Source: Prorocentrum cordatum (taxonomy: Eukaryota). Taken from it: 64,000 bases of DNA. The position numbers and the translations under genes are program-made. The notes beneath the pieces were generated by a model. That model saw nothing but the letters and a program-made list of their open reading frames with translations. It did no database searches and had not been told where the DNA came from. The stretch is taken from assembly GCA_963575745.1 (NCBI GenBank), contig CAUYUJ010000103.1, positions 496,001 to 560,000 of the forward strand, given 5' to 3'. Positions 9,708-42,278 of the stretch are shown one piece after another. Within the stretch, counting starts at the first letter, position 1; each line of letters starts with the position of its first letter.

Positions 9708-10404
9708 CCCACAGCTTGGCAAGGAAAGACATCTTCGGGGCTCAAGAGATGGGGGTCGAAGCAGGCGTGGGTCAGCCAGAGCGCCAGATCTTGCAGGACC
9801 CTGCAGGGACAGGGATGCATTGAGACCCGGGAGGAGGAGACCTTCCAGGCTCAAGATCATTTTGAACACGACTGGCTGTCCGCGCTGCCGCGGTCGTTGT
9901 TCACTGAAGACAAAAAACCGCCTGCCCAACAGCGGCCGCTGTCGGTTTTGGACTTGTTGGGCATTGTACCCTGTTTCCCCGCACCCATTTCGGGCGTCCA
10001 AACAAGAGACGGGGGTCAATGCAAACGGGGGTCAGTCAGAGCGCCGGATCTTGCAGGAGCCTGCAGAGCCAGGGTTGCATGGACCCCGGGTTCGGGTGCA
10101 GGATCCTGCAGGGTCCTGCAGGACCTTTTAGTATCTTGCAAAGCCTGACTGACCCAGGTCCGGACTGACCCAGGTCAGTAGAACCCCTAGATCTGGGGAG
10201 AGACACGGTTGCTGTTGGAGCCCGATGCTCTCCACGGCGGCGTCGCCGATGCATCGCCGACGCCACTGGTGCATCGGCGAGGCATCGACGATGCGGGCCT
10301 CGGGACACGGCCGGGCGGGCACAGTTTGCAGCCGGCTGGAGGGCGGGGTGGTCCAGCACAGGTTCCGGCCAGCAGGAAGGGGCTGCGAGGTCCGAGGTGA
10401 TTGT

Positions 10405-10565
10405 CAGGAGGGAAAAAACACAGACACAATTAATCGACGATTCCCCAGAAAATATGGGAAAATATGGGCGGTGGGGGGGGGGAAGACAAAAACCAAGAAA
10501 ATATGGGAGAATATGGGGAATATTTTATTTGTGTGTATTTATTTGTGTGTCCCAGTTCCCCTTCA
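10405..10565 (+). repeat. Approximately 160-bp host repeat (GAAAATATGGG family), uninterrupted copy
   Basis: Homologous to 41741-41903 and to the split copy 33805-33923 plus 41057-41093. Confidence 0.8.
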
Positions 10566-11989
10566 GAGGTGGTTGGTTCGAGAAGGGTTTTGGCCTTTTC
10601 GGTCTCTGGGGGCCAGTCCCAGGTCCCAGGACCGCTAAAAACGGATCCGTGTGAAAAGCTGCGCCAGACGGACCCTGGGAGGCGCCAGGGACATGTTACA
10701 CAATAGGTGCGCAGACTGACAGCAGCTCCTGTCTATTTTTGATGGGATTCGCTGTCGCGGATGTGGTCCATTTGAGACAAGGCCGCCCGCCCAACCTCTG
10801 CCGCTGTTGGTTCTGGACATTATTTGCTGATGGGCATGGTACCCATTTTTTCCGTACCCATGTCGGGCGTCCAGCGAAACGGTTGATGGACAAATTCTTT
10901 AACCTTGTATGCTGGTTTTTGTGAACATCCCCGGCGCCCCCAATTGCGGGCTGCGCCGCGATGTCTAGATCTGTCGACTGGCCAAAATCCTGCGCCCCGC
11001 TGGTGATGCCAACCAACATTGGATTGGGCGCAGGGGGCGCGTTGAAATTTGCGCTGGCCCCCCTCGCCGCGTGGGTGGTGGAGGACTTTGCCCATCAGCT
11101 AGGACTCGTCATGAAGCCAAAGGGGTCCCAGAGGTTTTCCGCCGTTTCTCGGGCCCCAATGGTCCTCCACGGGCCCTGGGACCGTCCAAAAACAACTCAG
11201 GTTGAAGAATTGGTCCCCGAGGAGGGCCCCGAGGTTCAGGACCCGGTTTCCCTCAGGACCCTTTTCTGTCATGGTAGAATACAGCGCGCCTCCGTCCTAC
11301 ATGACCCCCCTCCCCCAACCCTGGGAGCGCGCCCTGAAATCCTGGCGTCGCAGTTTTTCACAGCGGACGATTCTGCTCTGTTTCGGGACCCCAGGGCCCT
11401 CACGGATCGATACGGCCCGAAAAATGCACCAGAAAGATGGGTCCAGGGGTTTGGCCGAATTTTTGTACGATGTTGCAGTGTTTTCGTGACGTCGGATTCC
11501 AGGGCACGTCCATCCCCAGCTGGCCCCCCTTCCCCACAGGAAGGGGGATGTGGGGGTCGGGGCATTCTCTTGGTCAATACATGCTTTGGGGACTTTCTTG
11601 GGGTCCACCAAACGGACTCGAGTTTTGGGCGCTGGCTCGGCTCGAGCTTGGCTCGAGTCAGCGGACGTTCGACGCAATCTCGGCACGGGCGTTTTCTGCC
11701 GCTGCTGGCAGTCGGAGGGTTCAACACACTCCACTCCCTGGTAAAGTCATTCGCGGGGTCCAGAGCTCCCCCCGCCCTCTTCCGCGGGAAAATGATTCGA
11801 GGGTTCCAGAACACCCCCTGGCAACGACGACGACGACGCCGATGACGACGTCGCCGACGACGACGACGGCGACGGCGACGGCGAGGGCGACGACGCCGAC
11901 GCCGACGCCAACGACGACGACGATGACGAAGACGACGACGACGCGTACGACGACGCGTACGTCGACGCGTACGACGACTCCAGCGACGA

Positions 11990-18500: not shown

Positions 18501-18600
18501 NNNNNNNNNNNNNNNNNNNNNNNNNNNNNNNNNNNNNNNNNNNNNNNNNNNNNNNNNNNNNNNNNNNNNNNNNNNNNNNNNNNNNNNNNNNNNNNNNNNN
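18501..18600. other. Assembly gap (100 N)
   Basis: Run of N. Confidence 1.
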
Positions 18601-27502: not shown

Positions 27503-27522
27503 CGTAGCCGTTTTGGCTCAAG
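27503..27522 (+). other. Relict dinoflagellate spliced leader (DinoSL)
   Basis: CGTAGCCGTTTTGGCTCAAG versus the DinoSL 3' 20-mer CGTAGCCATTTTGGCTCAAG: 19/20. Followed by GC-rich UTR-like sequence, not by an SL-RNA GT donor. Confidence 0.85.
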
Positions 27523-32054: not shown

Positions 32055-33740
32055 AACGGCATCTCGGAGCCTAGAATTGCGAGGATGTCTCCAGCGTGAC
32101 GGGCTGGACCACCTCGCGCGCGGCATCTCGGACCCCAGAGTTGCGACGATGTCTCGGGCGAAACGTGCTGCGAGGAAGTCTCAGGCGAAACGGGCCGGAC
32201 CACCTCGAGCGCGGCGTCTCAGAGCTCCGAGTTGCGGGGGCCTCCTGGGGCCTCCAGGGGCCTCCTGGGGACCTCTTGGAGCTCTCTCCTGGGCCTCCTG
32301 TGGCCTCGTGAACTCCGCCTGGGGTTTCCTGAAGCCTCTTGGGGCTCCCAGGGGGGATATCTGACCTGTGGCCGCTTGGGCCTCTCAAAATGGAGGGGAG
32401 GGGCACAAGAGCAGGAAGAATCAACGAACCGACACCGGATGTGTATTATCTTGACACGTTCTGATAGGGGGCCTCCTGGAGATCTCCTGGGGGCCCCTGG
32501 GGCCTGTCCTGGGCGTCCTGCGGCCTCCTGGACCTCTCTGGGGCCTCCTGGGGCTCCCAGGGTCCCAGGGAGGATATGTAATGTAACATGTGGTCTTCTG
32601 GGCCCCCAGGCTGGACCACCTCTTGCGCGGCATCTGGGAGCTCAGAGTTGCGAGAATGTCTTGCGCACGGCATCTCAGAGCTCAAAGTTGCGAGGAAGTC
32701 TCAGGCGAAACGGGCCGGACCACCTCGCGCAGGGCATCTCAGAGCTCAGAAGTTCGAGGATGTCTCAGGCGGGCTCCCAGGGTCCCGGGGAGGATATGTA
32801 ACATGTCCTGGGCGTCCTGCGGCCTCCTGGTACCTCCAGGGGCCTCCTGGGGACCTCCTGGAGCTTCCTCCTAGGCCTCCTGTGGCCTCCTGAACTCCAC
32901 CTGAGGTTTCCTGAAGCCTCTTGGGGCTCCCAGGGGGGATATCTAACCTGTGGCCGCTTGGGCCTCTCCAAATGGAGGGGGGGCACAAGAGCAGGAAGAA
33001 TCAACGAATCGACACCGGATGTGTATTAACTTGACACGTTCTGATAGGCGGCCTCCTGGGGCCTCCTGGGAGCCTCCTGGGAATCTCCTGGGGGCCCCTG
33101 GGGCCTGTCCTGGGCGTCCTGCGGCCTCCTGGACCTCTCTGGGGCCTCCTGAGGCTCGCAGGGTCCCATGGAGGATATGTAACATGTGGTCTTCTGGGCC
33201 CCCAGGCTGGACCACCTCTTGCGCAGCATCTGAGAGCTCAGAGTTGCGAGAATGTCTTGTGCGAAACAGGCCGGACCACCTTGCGCACGGCATCTCAGAG
33301 CTCAGAGTTGCAAGGATGTCTCAGGCGAGACGGGCCGGACCACCTCGCGCAGGGCATCTCAGAGCTCAGAAGTTCGAGGATGTCTCAGGCGAAACGGGCC
33401 GGACCACCTCTCGCGCGGCATCTCCGAAGTCAGAGTTTCGAGGATGTCTCAGGCGAAACGGGCCGGACCACCTCGCGCAAGGCATCGCAGAGCTCAGAGT
33501 TTCGAGGATGTCTCAGGCGAAACGGCCCGGACCACCTCTCGCACGGCACCTCGGGGCTCAGAGTTTCGAGGATGTCTCAAGCGAAACGGCCCGGACCACC
33601 TCTCGCGCGGCGTCCCGGAGCGCAACTTTTCGAGGATGTCTCAGGCGAAACGGCCAATCCCGGCCAACTCAGAAACGAGAGTTGTGAGGATGTCTCCAGC
33701 GAAACCGCCAAAACCATAAAATTTTAGTGAGGATGTCTCT
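32055..33740 (+). repeat. Compound tandem repeat (about 66-bp GAGGATGTCTCAGGCGAAACGGGCCGGACCACCTC units and GGCCTCCTGG blocks, with an approximately 600-bp duplication)
   Basis: Visible repeats; the GAGGATGTCTCNNGCGAAACG motif is shared with the 42.6-46.6 kb elements. Confidence 0.8.
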
Positions 33741-33920
33741 GCTCCGCGTTCCCACGGCCGGAGTTAGTTTCTATCACAACAGCACCCCGTTCAGCAAGCT
33801 GTTTGGGGAAAAACACAGGCACAATTCATCGTCGATTCCCCAGAAAATATGGGAAGATATGGAAAGTGGGGGGGAAGACCAAAGCCAAGAAAATATGGGA
33901 AAATATGTGGGAGATGTTTA

Positions 33921-34056
33921 AATGATTATCTTTGGATGCAGTTTTCCTCCGCGTCGAGCGGCCAAGCGAGAGGGGCTTCTCCCCTTCCGTCTTCTCTTCT
34001 GCTCTGCTCTCCTGCTGCTGCTCTCCCCTCTCGCGGCCATTCTGGTTTCAAGGCTT
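33921..34056 (+). repeat. Split direct repeat A1 (136 bp)
   Basis: AATGATTATCTTTGGATGCAG...TTTCAAGGCTT; one C/T mismatch to A2 by eye. Confidence 0.95.
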
Positions 34057-34078
34057 GCATGGGCCAGCGTCGCGCCGG

Positions 34079-34753
34079 ATGCCCCTTCCCCTCGCGGCCC
34101 TCGGGCAGTGGGGCGCGGCGCTGGTTTCAGTCTGGGCCAGCCGCTGCCCCGCCTGCCCGGCCTGCCCGCCCTGTGGGTCGGTCAACGTCACCTGCGGCAA
34201 CTGCCCGGCGGCGCCTGCGGTGGCGTGCCCAGCAGTGCCCGACCCTCGGCCCTGCCCCGAGCTGTCCTGCCCGGCCCCCGCTCCGGCCGCGCTGGACTGG
34301 GCCTCGTGGCTGGGGCTGGGTTGGGTCCTGGGCGTGCTGTGCGCTGTGGCGGCGCTGGCGGTCTGCGCGCCCGTCGCAGCCCTACTGCACGGGTTCACCG
34401 CGCGGGCGCCGGCGCGCCCAGCAGGCGACGGCGGAGCTGGGGGCAGGGCCGAGACCCTGGACATCGTCGAGAGCCAGGTCTGCATCGCCTTCGACGACGA
34501 CCCGAACTTCAGGTGGCACCGCCGAGTGCTACTGGTCCCCTCGCCCACGCCTGGGCACTGGGTGGCCGCGACACCCGACGCCGAGATCTACCTCTTGAAG
34601 CTGGACGAGCACCTGGTGGTCGCCCTTCCGCGGGCGGCCGCGTTCCCGCAGAGAGTCCGAGGCCAGGTCTACGCGTTCGGGGCCCTCTCGGACGCCGACC
34701 TGGCCAACCTCCGCCGCGACGGGCGCAACTTCGCGAAGGTGCTGGGCTTTCCC
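34079..34753 (+). CDS. ORF1 N-terminal part: Cys-rich and transmembrane segment followed by the Gag-like N-terminal domain
   Basis: ATG at 34079 in the 33932 frame. MPLPLAALGQWGAALVSVWA (hydrophobic), CPACPACPPC...CPELSC (9 Cys, NVT sequon), WASWLGLGWVLGVLCAVAALAVCAPVAALL (TM-like), then globular-looking TLDIVESQVCIAFDDDPNFRWHRRVLLV...FAKVLGF. Protein-like sequence moves to the +1 frame at TTTCCCCATC (about 34748-34757). Gag assignment is by position. Confidence 0.6.
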
Positions 34754-34754
34754 C

Positions 34755-35615
34755 ATCCCCGCGGTGCAGGCGGGGGTCGACGTCCCGAGGTGGATCGTCT
34801 CCGACCCCGCGATCGACCACTTCGGGGAGGAGGTGAGCCTGGAGCCGATCACCTCGGCCGAGCGCTTCATCGGGCGGGACGCGGTGGCGCTCGTGATGCT
34901 GTCCGACGCCGAGGGCTGGGTCGCCGCCGAGAACGTCCAGCTCAGCGACGAGCCAGACTGGAAGGCGGAGAAGAGGGCCGGTCCTGGCAGGGACCGCCGC
35001 GTGCTGCCGCAGACGGGCGTGCCCGCTCAGACCGTCTCTCTAGCGCAGCTGGTGGCTCTGCTGAAGAGCGTGGACGTGGGCGACTGGCCCTTCGAGGGGC
35101 CCAAGGCCCTGGTCGAGTTATTAGCCGCGGTGGTCTCGTCTGGGCACTCGCTCTCGTCCTGCTGGGGCTTCTGGGTGGCCCAGTCGGGGGTCTCGCGCGC
35201 CAGCGCCGTCGCCCAGGAGCTGAAGAACATCGTGGAGGTCTTGCACCATGCGCTGGTCTTCGACGCGCTGGACGTCTCGAACCTCGCCTCGCTCGAGCTC
35301 CTGAGTCGCCGGGGCCTCCAGATCCAGAGGGCGGTCAAGCGCTGCCCGCGCCGCCCGCCCTTCGAGGTGCTGGAGTTGATGGTGTCGAGCCGCCTCGACG
35401 ACTCAGGCGGAGCCGTCACGACCAATTTCGACGCGTGGGTCGCCGACCAGCAGAAGGCGAGGAGCACCGTCCTCAAGCAGGAGAGGATGTACAGGGAGGA
35501 GGCCGACCACGAGGACAAGACGTACCGCCACGAGCAGAGGGACGAGGCAAGGCCCCCGCGCCCCAAGGCCAAGCCGAAGGGCAAGGCCGGGGCTGGGCCG
35601 GCCGGTGCTGGATAG
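34755..35615 (+). CDS. ORF1 C-terminal part (Gag-like), +1 frame relative to the N-terminal part
   Basis: Track ORF 34764..35615 has protein-like composition (DWPFEGP, WGFWVAQSGV, FDALDVSNLASLELLSRR) and a basic tail (KAKPKGKAG); it lies upstream of pol. Confidence 0.7.
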   Translation: MPAVQAGVDVPRWIVSDPAIDHFGEEVSLEPITSAERFIGRDAVALVMLSDAEGWVAAENVQLSDEPDWKAEKRAGPGRDRRVLPQTGVPAQTVSLAQLVALLKSVDVGDWPFEGPKALVELLAAVVSSGHSLSSCWGFWVAQSGVSRASAVAQELKNIVEVLHHALVFDALDVSNLASLELLSRRGLQIQRAVKRCPRRPPFEVLELMVSSRLDDSGGAVTTNFDAWVADQQKARSTVLKQERMYREEADHEDKTYRHEQRDEARPPRPKAKPKGKAGAGPAGAG

Positions 35616-35686
35616 CAAGCCGGGGGCCTCCGCGCCCCCCTCGGCCGCGGCGCCACCTGCCGCGGCCGTCGGCACACCGCGTCGCC

Positions 35687-38600
35687 ATGGCCACCACCTT
35701 GGACCGCGGCTGCCTCCCCGTCGAGGGTTCCTCCTCGCGGGGGCCCCCACCCTTGTTCCCGCTTCCGGTCACGGACGCCTTCTACTCGCATCCACCGCGA
35801 GGGGAACGTACCGCTTTGCCTCGGTATAAAGCGCAGCGTGCTGCCGCTGCTGATCGTCGCTCGGCCCGTGCCATCGAGACGATCACGACCCTCAATGGGA
35901 TGGCCGCCGCCTGCGCTGGGAGGGAAGGCGCGCTTCGGCCCCCTCAGAGGACTGGGAGCGCCGACATCGCCCAAGAGTCGGCGCTCAGGCGCATCCGCCG
36001 TCGGATCGCGGCCTTCGGTGATCGGCCCGCCGACTTGGATGGCGCTGGAGCCCTTCAGGAGCTCCTCAAGTCCAGGGGCGTCTACGGCGGCCTCGACGCT
36101 TCCACGACTGTGGTCGATTTTGATCCGAGCCGCCTCGACATCCTGCGCAAGGGGCATTTTTCAACGCCACTCGACGACGTGGCCCCTCAGAGCGTCATGG
36201 ATGTGATGGACAATTTTGACACTGCCGTCGCCCGCCCGCTCTCCGAGCTGCCAGAGGACGAGCCGCTGGTGCAGCCGTACTGGGGCCCGCAGCTCGACCC
36301 GCGCCGGCGCGGCACGCGCCCCGCGCTTGTGGCCTTTCTTCGCGCGCTGGCTCTCCGAGGGCTCGTGGGAGCTCGGGCCCGTCGGAAGGCGTGCATCTCC
36401 GCGTTCTTCGTGCGAAAGAAGAACGGTGATCAGAGGATGGTGCTGGATGCCCGGCAGGCCAACCAGTTGCAGCGCCTCCCGCCCAAGACCGCGCTGGCCT
36501 CAGGAGAGGCGCTCGCGGCGATCAACCTCGTGGACGCCACCGACCTCGGCCCCGACGACCTCGACATCGTGGCGACCGGGGGCGACTTGGTGGCCGGCTC
36601 GGTGGACCTGCAGGACGGCTTCTACCAGTTCCGCCACCCGGCCTGGGGCTCCTGGATGCGCTTCGACATCGAGATGGACGCCGGCGAGCTGGGGGCGACC
36701 CAGCTTTACGACGAGGAGCTCGGCCGCTACATCGACATCAGCCTGGACTCCCGAGTCTGGCCCTGCTTCGAGGCCCTTCCCATGGGATGGTCATGGGCCT
36801 TGTGGATCTGCCAGGAGGTCCTGATCGACGCCATGGGCGCCGTCTTCGGGGACAAGGACTCCTGGTGCCTGGACAAGGGCAAGCCGCCCTCCTTACTGAA
36901 TGGGGGGGTTGCCCATGCGCCCTACGTCGATAACGCGAACCTCATCTCCTTGGACGCCGGCCAGCTCGACCAGCGCCTCGGCGCCGTGACGGGCGAGCTG
37001 GACAAGAGGGGGCTCCGCTGGCACGAGCTGCAGCATGCCACCTCGTCGCAGGGCATCCGCGGTCTCGAGTTCGATGGCCGACACGGGCGCCTTCGCCACA
37101 CATCGCGGCGAGCCTGGCGCCTGTGCCTTGGCCTACACGAGGTCCTACGCAGGCCCAGGCTTGCCCGCTGGCAGGTCAGGAGGTTGCTGGGACACATCGT
37201 GCACTATTTCAGCATGATGCGGCCCGCCCTCAGCGCGCTGGGCGAGTGCTACGCCTACCTCGAGTCGGGCCCTATGGAGGGCGTCTCCCGCTTGCCGTCC
37301 AGCGTGCTGACGGAGCTTCGCTGCGCTGCTGGCCTCGTGTTCCTCGGCCAGGTGGACCTGCGCCGACCTCCTGCGCCGGTGTCCTTCACCACGGACAGCT
37401 CGACGCTGGGGCGCGCCGTCTGCGAGGCCGAGCTCTTCGGGGACGAGGTCCTCGGCGTGTCGCGGTGGCGCGAGAGGCAGCGCTTCAGCGAGGTCGAGGT
37501 CTCCGGCGACCCCGACAGGGACGCCTACCTAGGCCGCGCCGCGGGGCTGGCCGACGTCTCCGACCTGTACTACGATGAGCTCGGCGACGCCAGCGCGGGA
37601 CGCCCCCGCCGGCAGGCGCGGGCCCGCCGCCGTCGCCAGGAGATGGAGGTGGGCCGCCCCCCGCCTCCGCTCCCGCCCGAGCTGGTCGACCCGCAGCGGT
37701 GGACCGAGGCCTTCCGAGGCGCGTGGCGCCACCCCGGCCGCATCCACAGCCTGGAGGCTCGCGCCTCGGTGATCGGGCTGGGCGCGGCCGCGCGCCAGGC
37801 CAACTGCAGTGGGACCGAGCTGCAGAGCCTCTCGGACAACCTCTCCAGCGTGCTGTCGTTCGAGAAGGGCCGCGCCAGTAATCGGGAGCTCCTCGCCCAA
37901 TGTCGTCGGGCCGGCGCCTTGCAGCTGGGCACCGAGATCACGTGGCGAGTGCGACACGTTCCAGGATGTGTGAACGTTGCTGACTGGGGGGGCCGGGCCG
38001 CAGATCGCCGCGAGCTCCTGCCTGGCTGGATCCGCGGGGTCGGCTTCAGGGCCTGCCCGCCGGCGCCCAGCAGGTGCGCTCCCGTCGCGAGGCCCAGCGG
38101 CAGCCCGCCAGGTCCCGGGCCTGAGGAGCCCGGGCCCCCCATCGCCAGCGTTGCCTTCGCGACTCGGCCGTCCCCGAGCCGCGTCTCCGAGCCTCCAGGG
38201 CTTGGGGGGAAACATATTGGTTGCACGGGACAGTGGAGCGAGGACCTCGCACAAGGGATCATCCTCTCTACCACCCCAGCTGAGTCTGTTCTCCCATCCT
38301 GTCCTTCCCCTCCTCCATCATGCTCCACTTCATCGAGACCACGTACAGGTTATTGTTCACAGATTGGGTCGTCGCGCTCTTCGTCGGGTTACTGGCCTCA
38401 TATTGGGTCTCCAACTGCATCGGCTCATCAGCGACCCCAGGCTGGGCCCCCAGCTTCTTCGGCTTCTTGGGCGTCACGGGACAGGCCACCAACATCATCA
38501 TCGAGTCAAGGTCCCCAGGCTGGGTCATCAAGCTCTTCGGCTCCTCCTCGGGCGCGCAGCGGGCCTCGTAAGTGGTGCTCCTCGGGGTCTTCGTCTACGG

Positions 38601-39442
38601 CCCCGCGGGGCCAGCAGTCTAGCCGCGCCAGCTTCCTGGAGCTATTTGCTGGAGGTGCAAACCTATATGGGGCCTTCCGCGAGGCCTGTTTTCGCATTGC
38701 CTGCCCTCTGGACATTGCAAACGGCAAGCATCATGACCTCGCGCATCCTGGAGTCCGTAACGCTGTCTTGGCTTGGATTACTCAGCGCCGTTTCTGGTGC
38801 ATACATTTTGGCCTTCCGTGTGCCCACTGGGTGCCGGCTGGGGGCAACCGACCTCCACGCCCGGCAGACCTCGCTCTCGTCAGCTTCGCCGTGCGGGTGC
38901 TCAAGCTCTGCAGGAAGCTCAACATCTTCGTTCTCCTCGAGAACCCTGGCCCCAGCCGGGTCTGGCGCTGGGCGCCCCTGGAGAGGGAGCTCCGCTACCA
39001 CAGGCCCGGCAGGGTCGAGTGCGACTCCTGCCGCTTCGGGGCGCCCTTCAAGAAGCCAGGAGCGGTCGCCGGCGCGTTGCCGAACCTGGAGCTGCTGGGC
39101 CGGCGGACTATCTTGGCGGGCGCGTACCTCCCCGAGTGGTGCCGAGAGCTCGCGCGCATCGCCTCGCTCTCCGCCCCGAGGTCCGCCTATGGCCGAGCCA
39201 CGCCCAGAGACCTCGCGACTTGGGATGGCGTCCTGGCAGCCGCGTCGGGCGAGGTCCGCCTCCGTGCCCCCGGCCTCCCGCTCTGCCCGCGGAGGTTCAG
39301 GCCCCCTTGGCGAGCCGCCTGGGCCTCCGCGCTCGACCCGCGCCCCCGCCCCCCGGGCGGCGGGCGGGCCTCGCAGCGCCGCCCCGCCCCCAGGCGGAGG
39401 CCAAGCGCGGGGCCGTCGGGCGCTGGCGGCCGAGCGCCGTAG
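35687..39442 (+). CDS. Pol polyprotein: reverse transcriptase, RNase H and C5 DNA methyltransferase-like domain (about 1251 aa)
   Basis: ATG in GCCATGG context at 35687. RT motifs FFVRKKNGDQRMVLDAR, DLQDGFYQ (36605), LPMGWSW (36776), YVDN (36923). RNase H motifs TDSS, IHSLEAR, SDN, NVAD (about 37390-37995). MTase motifs FLELFAGG (38633), GLPC (38810-38821), ENP (38939), DSCRFG, AGAY. Confidence 0.9.
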   Translation: MATTLDRGCLPVEGSSSRGPPPLFPLPVTDAFYSHPPRGERTALPRYKAQRAAAADRRSARAIETITTLNGMAAACAGREGALRPPQRTGSADIAQESALRRIRRRIAAFGDRPADLDGAGALQELLKSRGVYGGLDASTTVVDFDPSRLDILRKGHFSTPLDDVAPQSVMDVMDNFDTAVARPLSELPEDEPLVQPYWGPQLDPRRRGTRPALVAFLRALALRGLVGARARRKACISAFFVRKKNGDQRMVLDARQANQLQRLPPKTALASGEALAAINLVDATDLGPDDLDIVATGGDLVAGSVDLQDGFYQFRHPAWGSWMRFDIEMDAGELGATQLYDEELGRYIDISLDSRVWPCFEALPMGWSWALWICQEVLIDAMGAVFGDKDSWCLDKGKPPSLLNGGVAHAPYVDNANLISLDAGQLDQRLGAVTGELDKRGLRWHELQHATSSQGIRGLEFDGRHGRLRHTSRRAWRLCLGLHEVLRRPRLARWQVRRLLGHIVHYFSMMRPALSALGECYAYLESGPMEGVSRLPSSVLTELRCAAGLVFLGQVDLRRPPAPVSFTTDSSTLGRAVCEAELFGDEVLGVSRWRERQRFSEVEVSGDPDRDAYLGRAAGLADVSDLYYDELGDASAGRPRRQARARRRRQEMEVGRPPPPLPPELVDPQRWTEAFRGAWRHPGRIHSLEARASVIGLGAAARQANCSGTELQSLSDNLSSVLSFEKGRASNRELLAQCRRAGALQLGTEITWRVRHVPGCVNVADWGGRAADRRELLPGWIRGVGFRACPPAPSRCAPVARPSGSPPGPGPEEPGPPIASVAFATRPSPSRVSEPPGLGGKHIGCTGQWSEDLAQGIILSTTPAESVLPSCPSPPPSCSTSSRPRTGYCSQIGSSRSSSGYWPHIGSPTASAHQRPQAGPPASSASWASRDRPPTSSSSQGPQAGSSSSSAPPRARSGPRKWCSSGSSSTAPRGQQSSRASFLELFAGGANLYGAFREACFRIACPLDIANGKHHDLAHPGVRNAVLAWITQRRFWCIHFGLPCAHWVPAGGNRPPRPADLALVSFAVRVLKLCRKLNIFVLLENPGPSRVWRWAPLERELRYHRPGRVECDSCRFGAPFKKPGAVAGALPNLELLGRRTILAGAYLPEWCRELARIASLSAPRSAYGRATPRDLATWDGVLAAASGEVRLRAPGLPLCPRRFRPPWRAAWASALDPRPRPPGGGRASQRRPAPRRRPSAGPSGAGGRAP

Positions 39443-40466
39443 GCGGGCGGCAGCGGCGGTGGATCGCGCCGAGCAACAGCGGCGAGCTCGCCGAGTGCCT
39501 CCTGGTGATTTCCTGCGTACGGCTTCGTTGCGGCCAGCGACCCTGACAAAGTATCAGCAGGCGGTCGCCGACTTCGAGGCCTGGGCTCGTCGCCAGCGTC
39601 TTCTCTTTGACAATCCAAAGAATGCCGACACGTCAATGAACTTGTACATTGAGCACCTTTTCTTTTCTGGATCTCCCCAGTACATGGCTCGCAATGCACT
39701 TTACGGTCTTGTTCGACTCCGAGGATGGGCTGTGGCCAAGCCTCACTTTGTGCGATCCAAAGATGCCCTGGCGGGCTGGTCTGCCAAGCTACCACGGCAT
39801 CCCAGGATGCCAGCCCCCTTCGACGCCGTCGTTGCCTGCATGGGGGCCCTCTCGGAGCGCTCCACGTTGGGGGCCCTCGCCGCCGTGGCCATGATAGTCC
39901 AGTTTGACCTGTACCTGCGGCCCAGCGAGGTGCTCTCCATCACCGCAGGCGACGTCCACGGCAGCGCGGGGGGCCAGGTCTCCGTCATCATCGCGCCTCT
40001 CACAGGCGGAGTGCCGTCCAAGACGAACGAGTTTGACCGCACTGTCGTTGCTGGCACGCCTGTCCCCCTTAGACGCCAGGTACCGGCTGCGCTACTCGCC
40101 CTCCGCAAAGGCCGAGCAGACGCGGCCAAGCTTCTTGCTCCTCTGAATCTCAGTGCATACGAGAGGCTCGTGCGGGGCGTAGCCTCCAACATAGGTCTGT
40201 GCCACGTCTTCTCCGTGCCTCATCAGCTTCGGCACGGAGGCCCCTCGCATGACGCTCTGGAGCATTTGCGTAGCCTGGATCAGATCCAACAGCGGGGGAG
40301 ATGGCGCGCACGAGAGTCCGTGCGCATCTATGAGAAGCACGGCTCACTCTTGCGTCAGCGTGCCGCCGTGCCTGCCGCCGTCCGTCAACGGGCCGCCCGT
40401 TTCTCGGCGGCGGATCTTCGCCACCTCGTCTCTCGCGTTGCCAGTTCGAGTCGGGTGCCAAGCTAA
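39189..40466 (+). CDS. Tyrosine recombinase (about 425 aa), overlapping the 3' end of pol in another frame
   Basis: Catalytic set present: R in YLRPSE (39918), K in SKT (40020), HQLR (40221-40232), W in RGRW (40302), Y in RIYEKH (40329). Start uncertain (ATG 39189 or 39225). Confidence 0.92.
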   Translation: MAEPRPETSRLGMASWQPRRARSASVPPASRSARGGSGPLGEPPGPPRSTRAPAPRAAGGPRSAAPPPGGGQARGRRALAAERRRRAAAAVDRAEQQRRARRVPPGDFLRTASLRPATLTKYQQAVADFEAWARRQRLLFDNPKNADTSMNLYIEHLFFSGSPQYMARNALYGLVRLRGWAVAKPHFVRSKDALAGWSAKLPRHPRMPAPFDAVVACMGALSERSTLGALAAVAMIVQFDLYLRPSEVLSITAGDVHGSAGGQVSVIIAPLTGGVPSKTNEFDRTVVAGTPVPLRRQVPAALLALRKGRADAAKLLAPLNLSAYERLVRGVASNIGLCHVFSVPHQLRHGGPSHDALEHLRSLDQIQQRGRWRARESVRIYEKHGSLLRQRAAVPAAVRQRAARFSAADLRHLVSRVASSSRVPS

Positions 40467-40529
40467 TATTATCTTTTTCTTTTCTTCCCAACCCGCCCAC
40501 CCAATGACAACTGAATTGGGGGTGGGAGC

Positions 40530-40714
40530 CAATGCTACGCAGTCTGTTCTGGTGATTTGATCCGGGCCCGGGTCCTTTTCCCATCGCTGCCAAGCAAGCT
40601 CAGCATTATATAATCTCAAGTGCACCTCGTCCTGAGCAAGGACGCGTCCTCGTGAAAAAGTGGATCGTCCGTCTCATGTATGTTCGAATGGTGGCCGCGC
40701 CTAGCTTGAGGAAT
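40530..40714 (+). repeat. Split direct repeat B1 (185 bp)
   Basis: CAATGCTACGCAGTC...CTAGCTTGAGGAAT; one C/T mismatch to B2; overlaps A2 by AAT. Confidence 0.95.
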
Positions 40715-40847
40715 GATTATCTTTGGATGCAGTTTTCCTCCGCGTCGAGCGGCCAAGCGAGAGGGGCTTTTCCCCTTCCGTCTTCTCTTCTGCTCTGCTC
40801 TCCTGCTGCTGCTCTCCCCTCTCGCGGCCATTCTGGTTTCAAGGCTT
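40712..40847 (+). repeat. Split direct repeat A2
   Basis: Copy of 33921-34056. Confidence 0.95.
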
Positions 40848-40871
40848 CCCTCCCTACCCACCCTGGGGAGT

Positions 40872-41056
40872 CAATGCTACGCAGTCTGTTCTGGTGATTT
40901 GATCCGGGCCCGGGTCCTTTTCCCATCGCTGCCAAGCAAGCTTAGCATTATATAATCTCAAGTGCACCTCGTCCTGAGCAAGGACGCGTCCTCGTGAAAA
41001 AGTGGATCGTCCGTCTCATGTATGTTCGAATGGTGGCCGCGCCTAGCTTGAGGAAT
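40872..41056 (+). repeat. Split direct repeat B2 (element 3' end)
   Basis: Copy of 40530-40714, separated from A2 by a 24-bp spacer. Confidence 0.95.
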
Positions 41057-42278
41057 TTGTGTCCATTTATTTGTGTGCCCCAGGGCCCCTTCAGTGTGGC
41101 GAGTCGGTCTCGGGTCGCTCTCCGACAGCATCTTCGGGGCGGGGCGCACCCGCTCCCGCGCCCCAGTTCGGGTTCGCCCAGGAACGGAGGGCCCCCGAAC
41201 GGTGCGGTGACCACACCGTGTGGTGAGTCGGTGCCCGTCCGTGCACCAGCGCGCCGAACCAGATGATACCATTTGGGTACACTTTCATGTCAGCCCTATC
41301 CTCTTCCCTCCTCTCCTCCCGCCTCCCTGGTCGCGTCTATTGGTATTTTTTCGCGTGCTGGTGCCTGAGAGTGCTGGTGCCGAGTCAGTGGAGATTCGGG
41401 GTGGCCGCACGGTTTTGGGACTCGGGTCGTTCTCCGGGGTCGCCTTGGGCGACCGGCCTCGGAGGTCCCAACATCGTGCGGTGGCGGACCGTGGGGTGAG
41501 ATCGTTGGGTGTTCCCAGGTCACCGCGCGGTCCGTCTCCATGCCGTCCTGGGGTCCCCAAGGAAGCCCGGTCGAGACAACGGCGGCCCTTTTCTCGGGGA
41601 CCGAGTGCTCCTGATCATGATGCCAGCTCCAGGACTGCCCAGGTGCGGGATCAAGGAAGGAGGGCCGCTAGATGCTCCAGAGCTCCTGGAACGCATCCAG
41701 AGCCAATCGCATCATGACTTCATGCTCGTCGGGCTACTGCCAGGAGGGGAACAAACACACAGACACGATTAATCGCCGATTCCCCAGAAAATATGGGAAA
41801 ATATGGGAAGTGGCGGGGAAGACAAAAAACCCAGAAAATATGGGAAAGTATAGGTAATCCTATTATTTGTGTGCATTTTTTTGCGTGTCCTGGGGCCCCT
41901 TCATACCGACGTGCTTCGTCCCTCCGGAGTCTCCCGGAGACTTCTCGGCGCAGACGGATCCGGATGGACCTTGGGAGGCGACCCTGGGAGGTGTCCGGAG
42001 GCCGCAGGGCTTGACCCAAACGGTGGTTCTGGCGATTTCGGGAACCGTGCTCGTTTTGGCTTCGTTTTGCAGCGAAGGCGAAACGCAGACAGAGCGAGGG
42101 AGAACGAAGACGCAGCGAGGGATTTTGTCGAGCCCTGGTCTGGAGGCCGATCTCGAGCTTGTCTGGCCCACGAGGGGCGTCCAAGAGGGGGGTGCTCCGA
42201 GCCGGGCCGGCCGAGGCCGCGGCCCGTCTTCAGGAGAGCAGGAAGCCATGATAGAGTTAAGTCGGGCGTGTCCCTCTA

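What the first reader, a model, noticed from the sequence alone, without database searches (positions are those of the whole stretch)
33921..41056. Complete young YR retrotransposon combining RT-RNase H, a cytosine methyltransferase, a recombinase and a membrane-like segment
Seen: A1-ORFs-B1-A2-B2 architecture with only one mismatch per repeat pair, uninterrupted pol and YR frames, and all YR catalytic residues. Established: this repeat layout is that of PAT/Ngaro-type DIRS elements, which integrate a circular cDNA through a YR; DNMT-carrying DIRS elements are known in Symbiodiniaceae. Inference: a recent insertion. The full combination seen here (SL-like A repeat, Cys-rich TM segment, YVDN RT, MTase) may define an undescribed lineage.
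Basis: partly seen in the sequence, partly recalled or inferred. Interest (0 to 1): 0.85.

Follow-up and report, generated by a model that had tools for sequence, protein, structure and literature searches.

The report
Dinoflagellate recombinase retrotransposon with methyltransferase-like domain
This is a real, recently inserted but damaged copy of a tyrosine-recombinase retrotransposon of a dinoflagellate, of a kind already described in coral symbionts, whose enzyme gene carries a hidden domain shaped like a cytosine methyltransferase.

Summary
The repeats are real: A1 33921-34056 / A2 40712-40847 (1 mismatch in 136) and B1 40524-40714 / B2 40866-41056 (2 in 191), in the order A1-genes-B1-A2-B2. 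The 7,136-bp unit sits in a dispersed host repeat, and empty paralogues exist. It encodes:
- a signal/Cys-rich/transmembrane segment fused to a gag-like ORF1;
- a pol with a divergent reverse transcriptase (YVDN), RNase H and a domain with the cytosine-5 methyltransferase fold (Z 11.6 to DNMT3A);
- a recombinase with a Cre-like fold and all catalytic residues.

Pfam recognises almost none of this.

The copy is not intact. ORF1 changes frame at 34748, where related copies lack one base. The methyltransferase-like domain lacks about 26 conserved residues.

It is not a lone lineage. The same gene set occurs in Prorocentrum, Amphidinium and marine metagenomes, with 2,583 protein clusters at E<=1e-30. 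The closest described kind is SymbioDIRS-Dnmt3 (PMC5890265). The spliced-leader likeness of repeat A is at chance level.

Verdict: a new member of a known kind, of moderate interest.

The parts
33921..34056 (+). Repeat A1 (136 nt)
   Evidence: 99.3% identical to A2 (1 mismatch). It starts with the AAT that also ends repeat B.
34079..34450 (+). N-terminal extension fused in frame to ORF1: signal-like start, Cys/Pro-rich stretch and a hydrophobic helix (about 34298-34402). It takes the place of the separate small membrane ORF0 of relatives.
   Evidence: hydropathy maximum 2.53. GC3 is 0.83-0.93 in this frame. 10 of 12 listed differences from related copies are at codon position 3. Relatives have a separate ORF0 with a hydrophobic N-terminus (3 of 3) and a segment with hydropathy above 1.6 in L004 and L015 (L010 maximum 1.44).
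34451..34748 (+). ORF1 (gag-like by position), N-terminal part, in the frame of 33926
   Evidence: residues 126-223 of this frame match residues about 9-106 of the continuous ORF1 of L015, L004 and L008 (E 1e-10 to 1e-12). For L010 the match is 107-223 to 4-113.
34748..34750 (+). Frame break in ORF1: a TTT run where related copies have one base fewer
   Evidence: table 4: 'left out 1' at 34748 in 2 contigs, depth 16.6 of 16.6. The GC3 phase switches here. Sequence read.
34751..35615 (+). ORF1, C-terminal part, in the +1 frame; ends in a basic Lys/Gly-rich tail
   Evidence: residues 65-319 match residues 117-367 of the same ORF1 of relatives (E 1e-24 to 1e-33).
35687..39442 (+). pol ORF (RT, RNase H, linker, MT-like domain), uninterrupted
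   Evidence: 37-39% identity over its length to metagenome proteins P0010 and P0011.
36330..37250 (+). Reverse transcriptase; motif C YVDN at 36923-36934
   Evidence: Invariant motifs. RVT_1 matches weakly in 4 of 26 relatives. P0061 carries PF00078. Y-x-D-N in 115 of 119 relatives.
37380..37990 (+). RNase H; acidic residues D (37394), E (37754), D (37835), D (37982)
   Evidence: These columns are invariant. Weak DNA_pol_viral_C hits in 2 of 26 relatives. The fold was not tested.
37991..38605 (+). Ser/Pro-rich linker of variable length among relatives
38606..39193 (+). Cytosine-5 methyltransferase-fold domain: FAGG (about 38642-38653), PC (38816-38821), ENP (38939-38947)
   Evidence: pLDDT 81; DNMT3B, E 8e-6; Z 11.6 to DNMT3A; lead.
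39104..39107 (+). Site of an in-frame loss of about 26 conserved residues (Cys/His-containing segment) in the MT-like domain
   Evidence: the segment is present in 31 of 31 relatives; it is present in the Prorocentrum proteins P0177, P0179 and P0180.
39225..40466 (+). Tyrosine recombinase ORF, overlapping the end of pol in another frame. The conserved part runs 39498-40463. Catalytic R 39918, K 40020, H 40221, R 40230, W 40302, Y 40329.
   Evidence: pLDDT 83; Cre/Tre, E 1.5e-6.
40524..40714 (+). Repeat B1 (191 nt)
   Evidence: 2 mismatches to B2.
40712..40847 (+). Repeat A2. It abuts B1 and shares AAT with it, so it is the internal copy of the presumed circle junction.
40866..41056 (+). Repeat B2, the right end of the element
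33805..33920 (.). Left flank: a member of a high-copy dispersed host repeat
   Evidence: depth 15,433 in the bin 33700-33953; paralogue at 10410-10526.
41057..41094 (.). Right flank: the continuation of the same host repeat
   Evidence: paralogue at 10529-10566, directly behind the left-flank paralogue; contigs join 33901-33910 to 41055-41066.

Best explanation
The 7,136-bp unit is a retrotransposon of the DIRS order. It is copied through RNA and integrated by a tyrosine recombinase, and it has split direct repeats (A1-genes-B1-A2-B2). It lies in a Prorocentrum-like dinoflagellate genome.

It belongs to a very large family found in dinoflagellates and marine metagenomes. The family's gene set is a small membrane protein (ORF0), a gag-like ORF1, a pol with a divergent reverse transcriptase (Y-x-D-N), RNase H and a compact cytosine-5 methyltransferase-fold domain, and a Cre-like recombinase.

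Likely mode of action, inferred from the published models for DIRS1, PAT and Ngaro elements (recalled from memory) and for SymbioDIRS-Dnmt3:
1. An RNA running from within A1 to within B2 is reverse-transcribed.
2. The internal B1-A2 junction guides the joining of the cDNA ends into a circle. The circle's B-A junction reads ...GAGG-AAT-GATT...
3. The recombinase crosses this junction with a target at AAT. This leaves AAT at both ends and no other duplication.
4. The methyltransferase-like domain may methylate the cDNA.

This copy inserted recently into a dispersed host repeat, but it is probably not autonomous. ORF0 is fused to ORF1, ORF1 is frameshifted at 34748, and the methyltransferase-like domain has lost about 26 conserved residues.
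For: Shown here:
- Repeats and layout.
- AAT is shared by the B1/A2 junction and by both outer junctions.
- Empty paralogues of the host repeat exist, in the window at 10410-10566 and in contigs that join 33901-33910 to 41055-41066.
- The recombinase has a Cre/Xer/lambda-Int fold, with 39 matches at E<=0.001. R, K, HxxR, W and Y are invariant in 7 of 7 sequences. Phage_integrase matches weakly in 4 of 7 members.
- The methyltransferase-like domain has pLDDT 81. All 50 rows listed by VIA-align are cytosine-5 methyltransferases, with Z 11.6, rmsd 3.9 and 176 residues aligned. G of FxGxG, PC and E-N-P are invariant or nearly so in 32 sequences.
- Reverse transcriptase and RNase H motifs are invariant. 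There are weak RVT_1 hits in 4 of 26 relatives.
- Family size and spread.
- Damage to this copy.

Inferred: every step of the replication cycle, and any methylating activity.
Against: - No Pfam model reaches its cut-off on any part of the window's element.
- Sequence and profile searches of PDB gave nothing significant.
- The RT and RNase H folds were not modelled.
- No split repeats of 40 nt or more were found in 7 metagenome loci of relatives. Short-read assemblies tend to break at such repeats, so this is weak.
- No reads showing a circle junction were available.
- The extra base at 34748 lies in a TTT run and could be an assembly error.
- The related contigs are only 85-95% alike, so the 'damage' is judged against a sister subfamily, not against this copy's own parent.
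- The paralogous empty site is about 85% alike, so it cannot fix the exact crossover.
Confidence: 0.85

Rival explanations
1. The copy is intact and autonomous. On this reading the frame change at 34748 is an assembly error or a programmed frameshift, the ORF0-ORF1 fusion is how this subfamily is built, and the short methyltransferase-like domain is tolerated.
For: - The pol and recombinase frames are open.
- The repeats differ at only 3 of 327 positions.
- The extra base lies in a homopolymer.
- The catalytic motifs of the MT-like domain are kept, and it still models with pLDDT 81.
- The closest protein, P0182 (78% identity), also lacks the segment, though it is a gene model.
Against: - Two related contigs lack the base, at depth 16.6 of 16.6.
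- ORF1 is one continuous frame in 4 of 4 metagenome relatives compared.
- The lost segment is present in 31 of 31 aligned relatives and in 3 Prorocentrum proteins of the same subfamily.
Confidence: 0.2
2. The methyltransferase-fold domain does not methylate DNA cytosines. It could be an inactive scaffold, a nucleic-acid-binding module, or an enzyme that acts on RNA as DNMT2 does.
For: - PF00145 does not match it, in 0 of 26 relatives and not in the window.
- The usual target-recognition domain is replaced by a short Cys/His segment.
- DNMT2 is among the fold matches.
- PMC5890265 (passages read) raises the possibility of RNA methylation for the LINE-borne DNMT.
Against: - The catalytic Pro-Cys, the Glu-Asn of motif VI and the glycine of FxGxG are invariant or nearly so across 32 diverse members. 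That points to selection for catalysis.
- PMC5890265 (abstract) reports de novo CG methylation by retrotransposon DNMTs.
Confidence: 0.35
3. The family captured its methyltransferase domain independently and is a lineage separate from SymbioDIRS-Dnmt3. That would be the first reader's 'undescribed lineage', but at the level of the family.
For: - No named Symbiodiniaceae protein appeared in 3 word-seeded searches.
- No relative carries PF00145, whereas the published elements were found with that model (PMC5890265, methods passage).
Against: - The published elements share the A-coding-B-A-B layout, a DNMT within pol, a separate recombinase ORF and an RT that does not fit Pfam (PMC5890265, passages).
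- The searches scored only 8,000 word-sharing candidates each, so missing names prove little.
- Fold scores do not separate DNMT3 from other cytosine-5 methyltransferases (Z 11.6 against 11.2).
Confidence: 0.25
4. The A/B repeat layout is an assembly artefact or a local duplication and is not part of a mobile element.
For: No raw reads of this locus were seen. The only run that holds related sequence is kept as contigs.
Against: - The unit is bounded exactly by the repeats.
- Paralogous host repeats lack it.
- The layout is the one published for this class (PMC5890265).
Confidence: 0.03

Closest known systems
SymbioDIRS-Dnmt3 of Symbiodinium (de Mendoza et al. 2018, PMC5890265; abstract and passages read, figures and main supplement not seen)
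   Same: Both are in dinoflagellate hosts. Both have the A-coding-B-A-B repeats, a cytosine-methyltransferase domain inside the pol ORF together with RT and RNase H, a separate recombinase ORF, and an RT too divergent for Pfam.
   Different: Here the domain is not detected by PF00145, is compact (about 200 residues) and has a short Cys/His segment in place of a target-recognition domain. The host is Prorocentrum-like. An upstream membrane-protein ORF exists in the family. Whether the published elements share these traits could not be checked.
PAT-like elements of the DIRS order (recalled: Goodwin and Poulter)
   Same: Both have split direct repeats and the gene order gag, then RT/RNase H/methyltransferase-like domain, then recombinase.
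   Different: The PAT and DIRS1 domain is an N6-adenine (Dam-like) methylase, called inactive by Iyer and Aravind (PMC3537659, passage). Here the fold is that of a cytosine-5 methyltransferase.
Ngaro elements (recalled: Goodwin and Poulter 2004)
   Same: Both have split direct repeats A1-B1-A2-B2, RT/RNase H followed by a recombinase, and no target-site duplication.
   Different: Ngaro elements lack a methyltransferase domain.
DIRS1-type retroposon of Ectocarpus with an ALOG recombinase (Iyer and Aravind 2012, PMC3537659; passages read)
   Same: It carries fast-diverging extra ORFs at its 5' end, including a predicted membrane protein. This is a precedent for ORF0.
   Different: That protein has seven transmembrane helices. 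The element also has an adenine methylase, an ALOG domain and plain terminal direct repeats.

Membership tests
DIRS order (tyrosine-recombinase retrotransposons) | Tyrosine recombinase in place of a DDE integrase | tested here: met
   Cre/Xer/lambda-Int fold. R, K, HxxR, W and Y invariant in 7 of 7 sequences. Weak Phage_integrase matches in 4 of 7 members.
DIRS order (tyrosine-recombinase retrotransposons) | Reverse transcriptase and RNase H in pol | tested here: met
   Invariant RT motifs and D-E-D-D columns. RVT_1 at E 1.5e-6 to 7e-5 in 4 of 26 relatives, all below the cut-off. P0061 carries PF00078. The folds were not modelled.
DIRS order (tyrosine-recombinase retrotransposons) | Terminal repeats of the DIRS type (inverted repeats plus an internal complement, or split direct repeats) | tested here: met
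   A1-genes-B1-A2-B2, with B1 abutting A2.
DIRS order (tyrosine-recombinase retrotransposons) | No target-site duplication from staggered cuts | tested here: met
   Only the AAT that is also present once at the internal B1/A2 junction flanks the element. The empty paralogue is too diverged to fix the exact site.
SymbioDIRS-Dnmt3 | A-coding-B-A-B layout with the DNMT in the pol ORF and a separate recombinase ORF | tested here: met
   The description is taken from passages of PMC5890265.
SymbioDIRS-Dnmt3 | DNMT domain detectable with Pfam DNA_methylase (PF00145) | tested here: not met
   No hit in the window at E<=10, nor in 0 of 26 relatives.
SymbioDIRS-Dnmt3 | DNMT belongs to the Dnmt3 clade | tested here: inconclusive
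   DNMT3A, 3B and 3C rank first, but they are within 1 Z unit of M.HaeIII and M.HhaI. No tree was made.
SymbioDIRS-Dnmt3 | RT groups with the published SymbioDIRS RTs | not testable with these tools
   No reference sequences were at hand. The main supplement was too large to read.
PAT-like / DIRS1-like | Dam-like N6-adenine methylase domain after RNase H | tested here: not met
   The domain in that position has a cytosine-5 methyltransferase fold with PC and ENP motifs.
Ngaro | No methyltransferase domain in pol | tested here: not met
   The domain is present. The feature itself is recalled.
Cytosine-5 DNA methyltransferases (for the domain only) | Fold with motif I (FxGxG), motif IV (Pro-Cys) and motif VI (Glu-Asn-x) | tested here: met
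   The motif names are recalled.
Cytosine-5 DNA methyltransferases (for the domain only) | Target-recognition domain between motifs VIII and IX | tested here: not met
   Relatives have only a segment of about 25-35 residues containing Cys and His, and this copy lacks even that.
Cytosine-5 DNA methyltransferases (for the domain only) | Methyl transfer to cytosine | not testable with these tools
   This needs an enzyme assay.

The most novel reading that the evidence does not exclude
The family as a whole may be an undescribed four-gene branch of recombinase retrotransposons that is widespread in dinoflagellates and marine plankton. Every member would pair a Y-x-D-N reverse transcriptase with a miniature cytosine-5 methyltransferase that standard domain models cannot see. 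That enzyme has a small Cys/His knuckle where the target-recognition domain should be. Each member would also carry a small signal-plus-transmembrane protein gene ahead of gag. If so, methyltransferase capture by these elements would be far older and broader than the Symbiodiniaceae cases in print, and elements counted there as 'without DNMT' might carry a hidden one.
Probability: 0.35. Interest if true: 0.6.

Novelty: new member of a known kind. Interest (0 to 1): 0.4.

Why it matters
Retrotransposons that carry their own cytosine methyltransferase have been described in dinoflagellates only for Symbiodiniaceae (PMC5890265; still cited that way in the 2026 preprint 10.64898/2026.05.21.726589, passages read).

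This element shows the same design in a bloom-forming Prorocentrum-like genome. Its relatives show it in Amphidinium and in open-ocean metagenomes. There the domain escapes Pfam, so surveys based on PF00145 would miss it.

That bears on how old and how general the link is between these elements and the heavily methylated dinoflagellate genome. The conserved small membrane-protein gene ahead of gag is a second lead, and its role is unknown.

The copy itself is ordinary: a recently inserted but damaged member.

Tried and rejected
- Pfam on 8 and then 6 translated stretches gave nothing above chance except Phage_integrase at E 0.044.
- PDB sequence searches with single sequences and with profiles gave nothing significant. 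The best was FIV RT at E 0.12.
- Pfam on ORF0 and ORF1 of relatives gave nothing. The ESM Atlas on ORF1 gave no score of 0.9 or more.
- Rfam on the whole window gave 0 matches.
- Split repeats were sought in 7 metagenome loci. None of 40 nt or more was found, only one simple array. This is uninformative, because assemblies break at such repeats.
- Sequencing runs: no RNA holder is listed. One DNA run kept as contigs holds 21% of the words. Parts without cover say nothing.
- Spliced-leader likeness of repeat A: rejected as evidence, because the match quality is at chance level and no such motif lies upstream in the relatives' loci.
- An intron or another coding frame in the linker 38000-38600: rejected. 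The odd codon-position composition fits a Ser/Pro/Ala-rich linker whose length varies among relatives.
- Supplements of PMC5890265: the 3 readable files are review and data files without element sequences, and the main supplement was too large to read.
- Earlier notes of this scan: none by sequence.
The recombinase model therefore rests on 7 sequences.
- CpG observed/expected is 0.97 in the element against 0.80 in the flanks. I noted this but drew no conclusion from it.


Full report
OBSERVATION

A1 33921-34056 and A2 40712-40847 differ at 1 of 136 positions. B1 40524-40714 and B2 40866-41056 differ at 2 of 191. All three mismatches are C/T differences. B1 runs directly into A2, and the two share the triplet AAT. 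The left flank meets A1 as ...GTTTA|AATGATT..., and B2 meets the right flank as ...GAGGAAT|TTGTG.... AAT therefore stands once at the internal junction and once at each outer junction. There is no other duplication.

The unit is GC-rich (0.68 against 0.60 for the window).

THE INSERTION

The flanks belong to a high-copy dispersed repeat. Summed contig depth is 15,433 in the bin 33700-33953 and 2,514 in 41066-41300.

A paralogue in the same window joins the two flank sequences almost directly, at 10410-10526 and 10529-10566 (84.6% and 86.8% identity). Several contigs of a public DNA run join 33901-33910 to 41055-41066 and skip about 7,150 bases (table 5). The 7,136 bp are therefore an insertion. 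The paralogues are too diverged to fix the crossover to the base.

CODING FRAMES

GC at third codon positions shows which frame is read:
- The frame of 33926 from about 34000 to about 34750.
- The +1 frame to 35615.
- The first frame again from about 35700 to 37950 and from 38650 to 39300.
- The +1 frame for the recombinase from about 39400.

The long 1,838-codon 'ORF' is thus open by composition between about 34750 and 35690, but it is not coding there.

ORF1 AND ORF0

The window's first-frame piece and +1-frame piece match consecutive parts of one continuous ORF1 in 4 of 4 metagenome relatives compared. These parts are residues about 9-106 and about 117-367 (L010: 4-113).

The switch lies at a TTT run at 34748-34750. 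There two related contigs lack one base, at depth 16.6 of 16.6 (table 4). So this copy's ORF1 is frameshifted, or the assembly has a homopolymer error.

ORF1 has no Pfam family and no Atlas match. I call it gag-like only from its position and its basic tail.

In the three relatives with enough upstream DNA (L004, L010, L015), ORF1 starts at a Met just before the conserved TLDI..EVQ. It is preceded, in the -1 frame with 17-35 nt of overlap, by a small ORF0. ORF0 has a hydrophobic N-terminus, a conserved Cys-x-Trp, a hydrophobic segment (hydropathy above 1.6 in L004 and L015; maximum 1.44 in L010), and an end reading RP.RPSD(L/F). ORF0 is 30-46% identical among them, against 53-69% for ORF1, and differences are most frequent at third codon positions.

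In the window the matching place is taken by a 125-residue extension fused in frame to ORF1. It has a signal-like start, a Cys/Pro-rich stretch and a hydrophobic helix with a hydropathy maximum of 2.53.

Of the 12 differences from related copies that one search lists between 34099 and 34378, 10 fall on third positions of this frame (my count). This speaks for a translated segment. Related contigs carry 53 letters in place of 12 at 34433-34446, so the fusion may be peculiar to this subfamily or to this copy.

There is a precedent for membrane-protein ORFs at the 5' end of a DIRS1-type element in Ectocarpus (PMC3537659, passage).

POL

Pfam sees nothing in the window's pol, and PDB sequence searches see nothing either. 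Relatives are nevertheless plentiful:
- 23 proteins in the first search: 12 named Prorocentrum cordatum, 1 Amphidinium carterae, the rest unnamed.
- 32 at E<=1e-10 in the profile search.
- 22,501 clusters at E<=0.001, of which 2,583 at E<=1e-30, in the exhaustive search.

The alignments show invariant reverse-transcriptase motifs (..FFV.KK...R.V.D.R..N, D.QDGFYQF, GWSW, YVDN) and four invariant acidic columns of an RNase H. Of 26 relatives scanned, 4 match RVT_1 below its cut-off, 2 match the hepadnaviral RNase H model weakly, 1 matches Phage_integrase, and none matches PF00145.

Motif C reads Y-x-D-N in 115 of the 119 relatives in which I could locate it.

THE METHYLTRANSFERASE-LIKE DOMAIN

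A profile of the C-terminal domain finds it in 127 of the 172 proteins held at that time. In an alignment of 32 diverse members, G of FxGxG, Pro-Cys, Glu-x-Pro, a Ser, a Cys, a Lys, an Ala and a Tyr are invariant.

The AlphaFold model of the window's domain has pLDDT 81.2 and pTM 0.80. Foldseek gives 89 PDB matches at E<=0.001, led by DNMT3B, 3A and 3C, DNMT2, M.HaeIII and DNMT1. In the VIA-align re-alignment all 50 listed rows are cytosine-5 methyltransferases. The best is DNMT3A at Z 11.6, rmsd 3.9, with 176 residues aligned. M.HaeIII and M.HhaI are within 1 Z unit, so the fold does not say which clade it came from. The Atlas lead agrees.

The family has only a Cys/His segment of about 25-35 residues where a target-recognition domain would lie. 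The window copy lacks that segment. It is present in 31 of 31 aligned relatives and in the Prorocentrum proteins P0177, P0179 and P0180 of the same subfamily. The subfamily-wide KKPG and AYLP variants show that those two departures are not decay of this copy.

THE RECOMBINASE

The ORF overlaps the end of pol, as it does in the relatives. R, K, H-x-x-R-H, W and Y are invariant in 7 of 7 sequences. Phage_integrase matches 4 of 7 weakly, best E 3.9e-4.

The model (pLDDT 82.6) matches Cre/Tre at E 1.5e-6, and also XerH, the integron integrase, lambda Int, XerD and Flp.

The domain co-occurs with the pol in many fused gene models. In three of them it lies between RNase H and the methyltransferase-like domain. 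This recalls the two domain orders reported for SymbioDIRS-Dnmt3 (PMC5890265, passage).

MECHANISM

The mechanism is inferred, not shown. Following the published models for this class (recalled) and the proposal of PMC5890265:
1. An RNA that lacks the outer parts of A1 and B2 is reverse-transcribed.
2. The internal B1-A2 junction templates the closure of the cDNA into a circle.
3. The recombinase exchanges strands between the circle's GAGG-AAT-GATT junction and a target.
4. The methyltransferase-like domain may mark the cDNA.

What is shown here is the anatomy, the folds, the conserved catalytic residues and the insertion.

COMPARISON AND NOVELTY

The closest described kind is SymbioDIRS-Dnmt3. 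It has the same repeat layout, a DNMT in pol, a separate recombinase ORF and an RT that does not fit Pfam (PMC5890265, passages).

The differences I could establish are the host, the failure of PF00145, the compact domain, and the ORF0 gene in the family. I could not establish whether the published elements share these traits, because the figures and the main supplement were not readable.

A 2026 preprint still names only Symbiodiniaceae for dinoflagellate TE-borne DNMTs (10.64898/2026.05.21.726589, passage).

The spliced-leader likeness of repeat A is no better than chance.

The scan had already noted another recombinase retrotransposon family in this genome, on other DNA.

VERDICT

This is a real, recently inserted but damaged copy, and a new member of a known kind. 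The family-level traits are worth a proper phylogenetic study.

Noticed in passing
window 27507-27522: A near-perfect relic of the dinoflagellate spliced leader (1 mismatch in 16 to the recalled motif) on the + strand. It fits a retro-copied gene or element start.
   Followed up: no
window 33141-33716 (also 32585-32776): A tandem array of 64-nt units just left of the element. The 82-nt repeats at 32500, 32799 and 33101 are Gly/Pro-codon-like.
   Followed up: no
window 33809-33883, 41753-41851 and 10402-10566: Three copies in the window of the high-copy host repeat (about 85-88% alike) into which the element inserted. Its depth in a public run is in the thousands.
   Followed up: partly
L015 3060-3250: A 10-nt microsatellite-like array (ATATTCAATC) upstream of a related element in a metagenome contig.
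   Followed up: no
proteins P0166, P0114, P0164: Family members in which the recombinase domain lies between RNase H and the methyltransferase-like domain in one predicted protein. This is a second domain order.
   Followed up: partly
window 40606-40615 and 40948-40957 (repeat B): Each B repeat holds a TATATAA-like stretch. Its role, if any, is unknown.
   Followed up: no
window 18501-18600: An assembly gap of 100 N.
   Followed up: no
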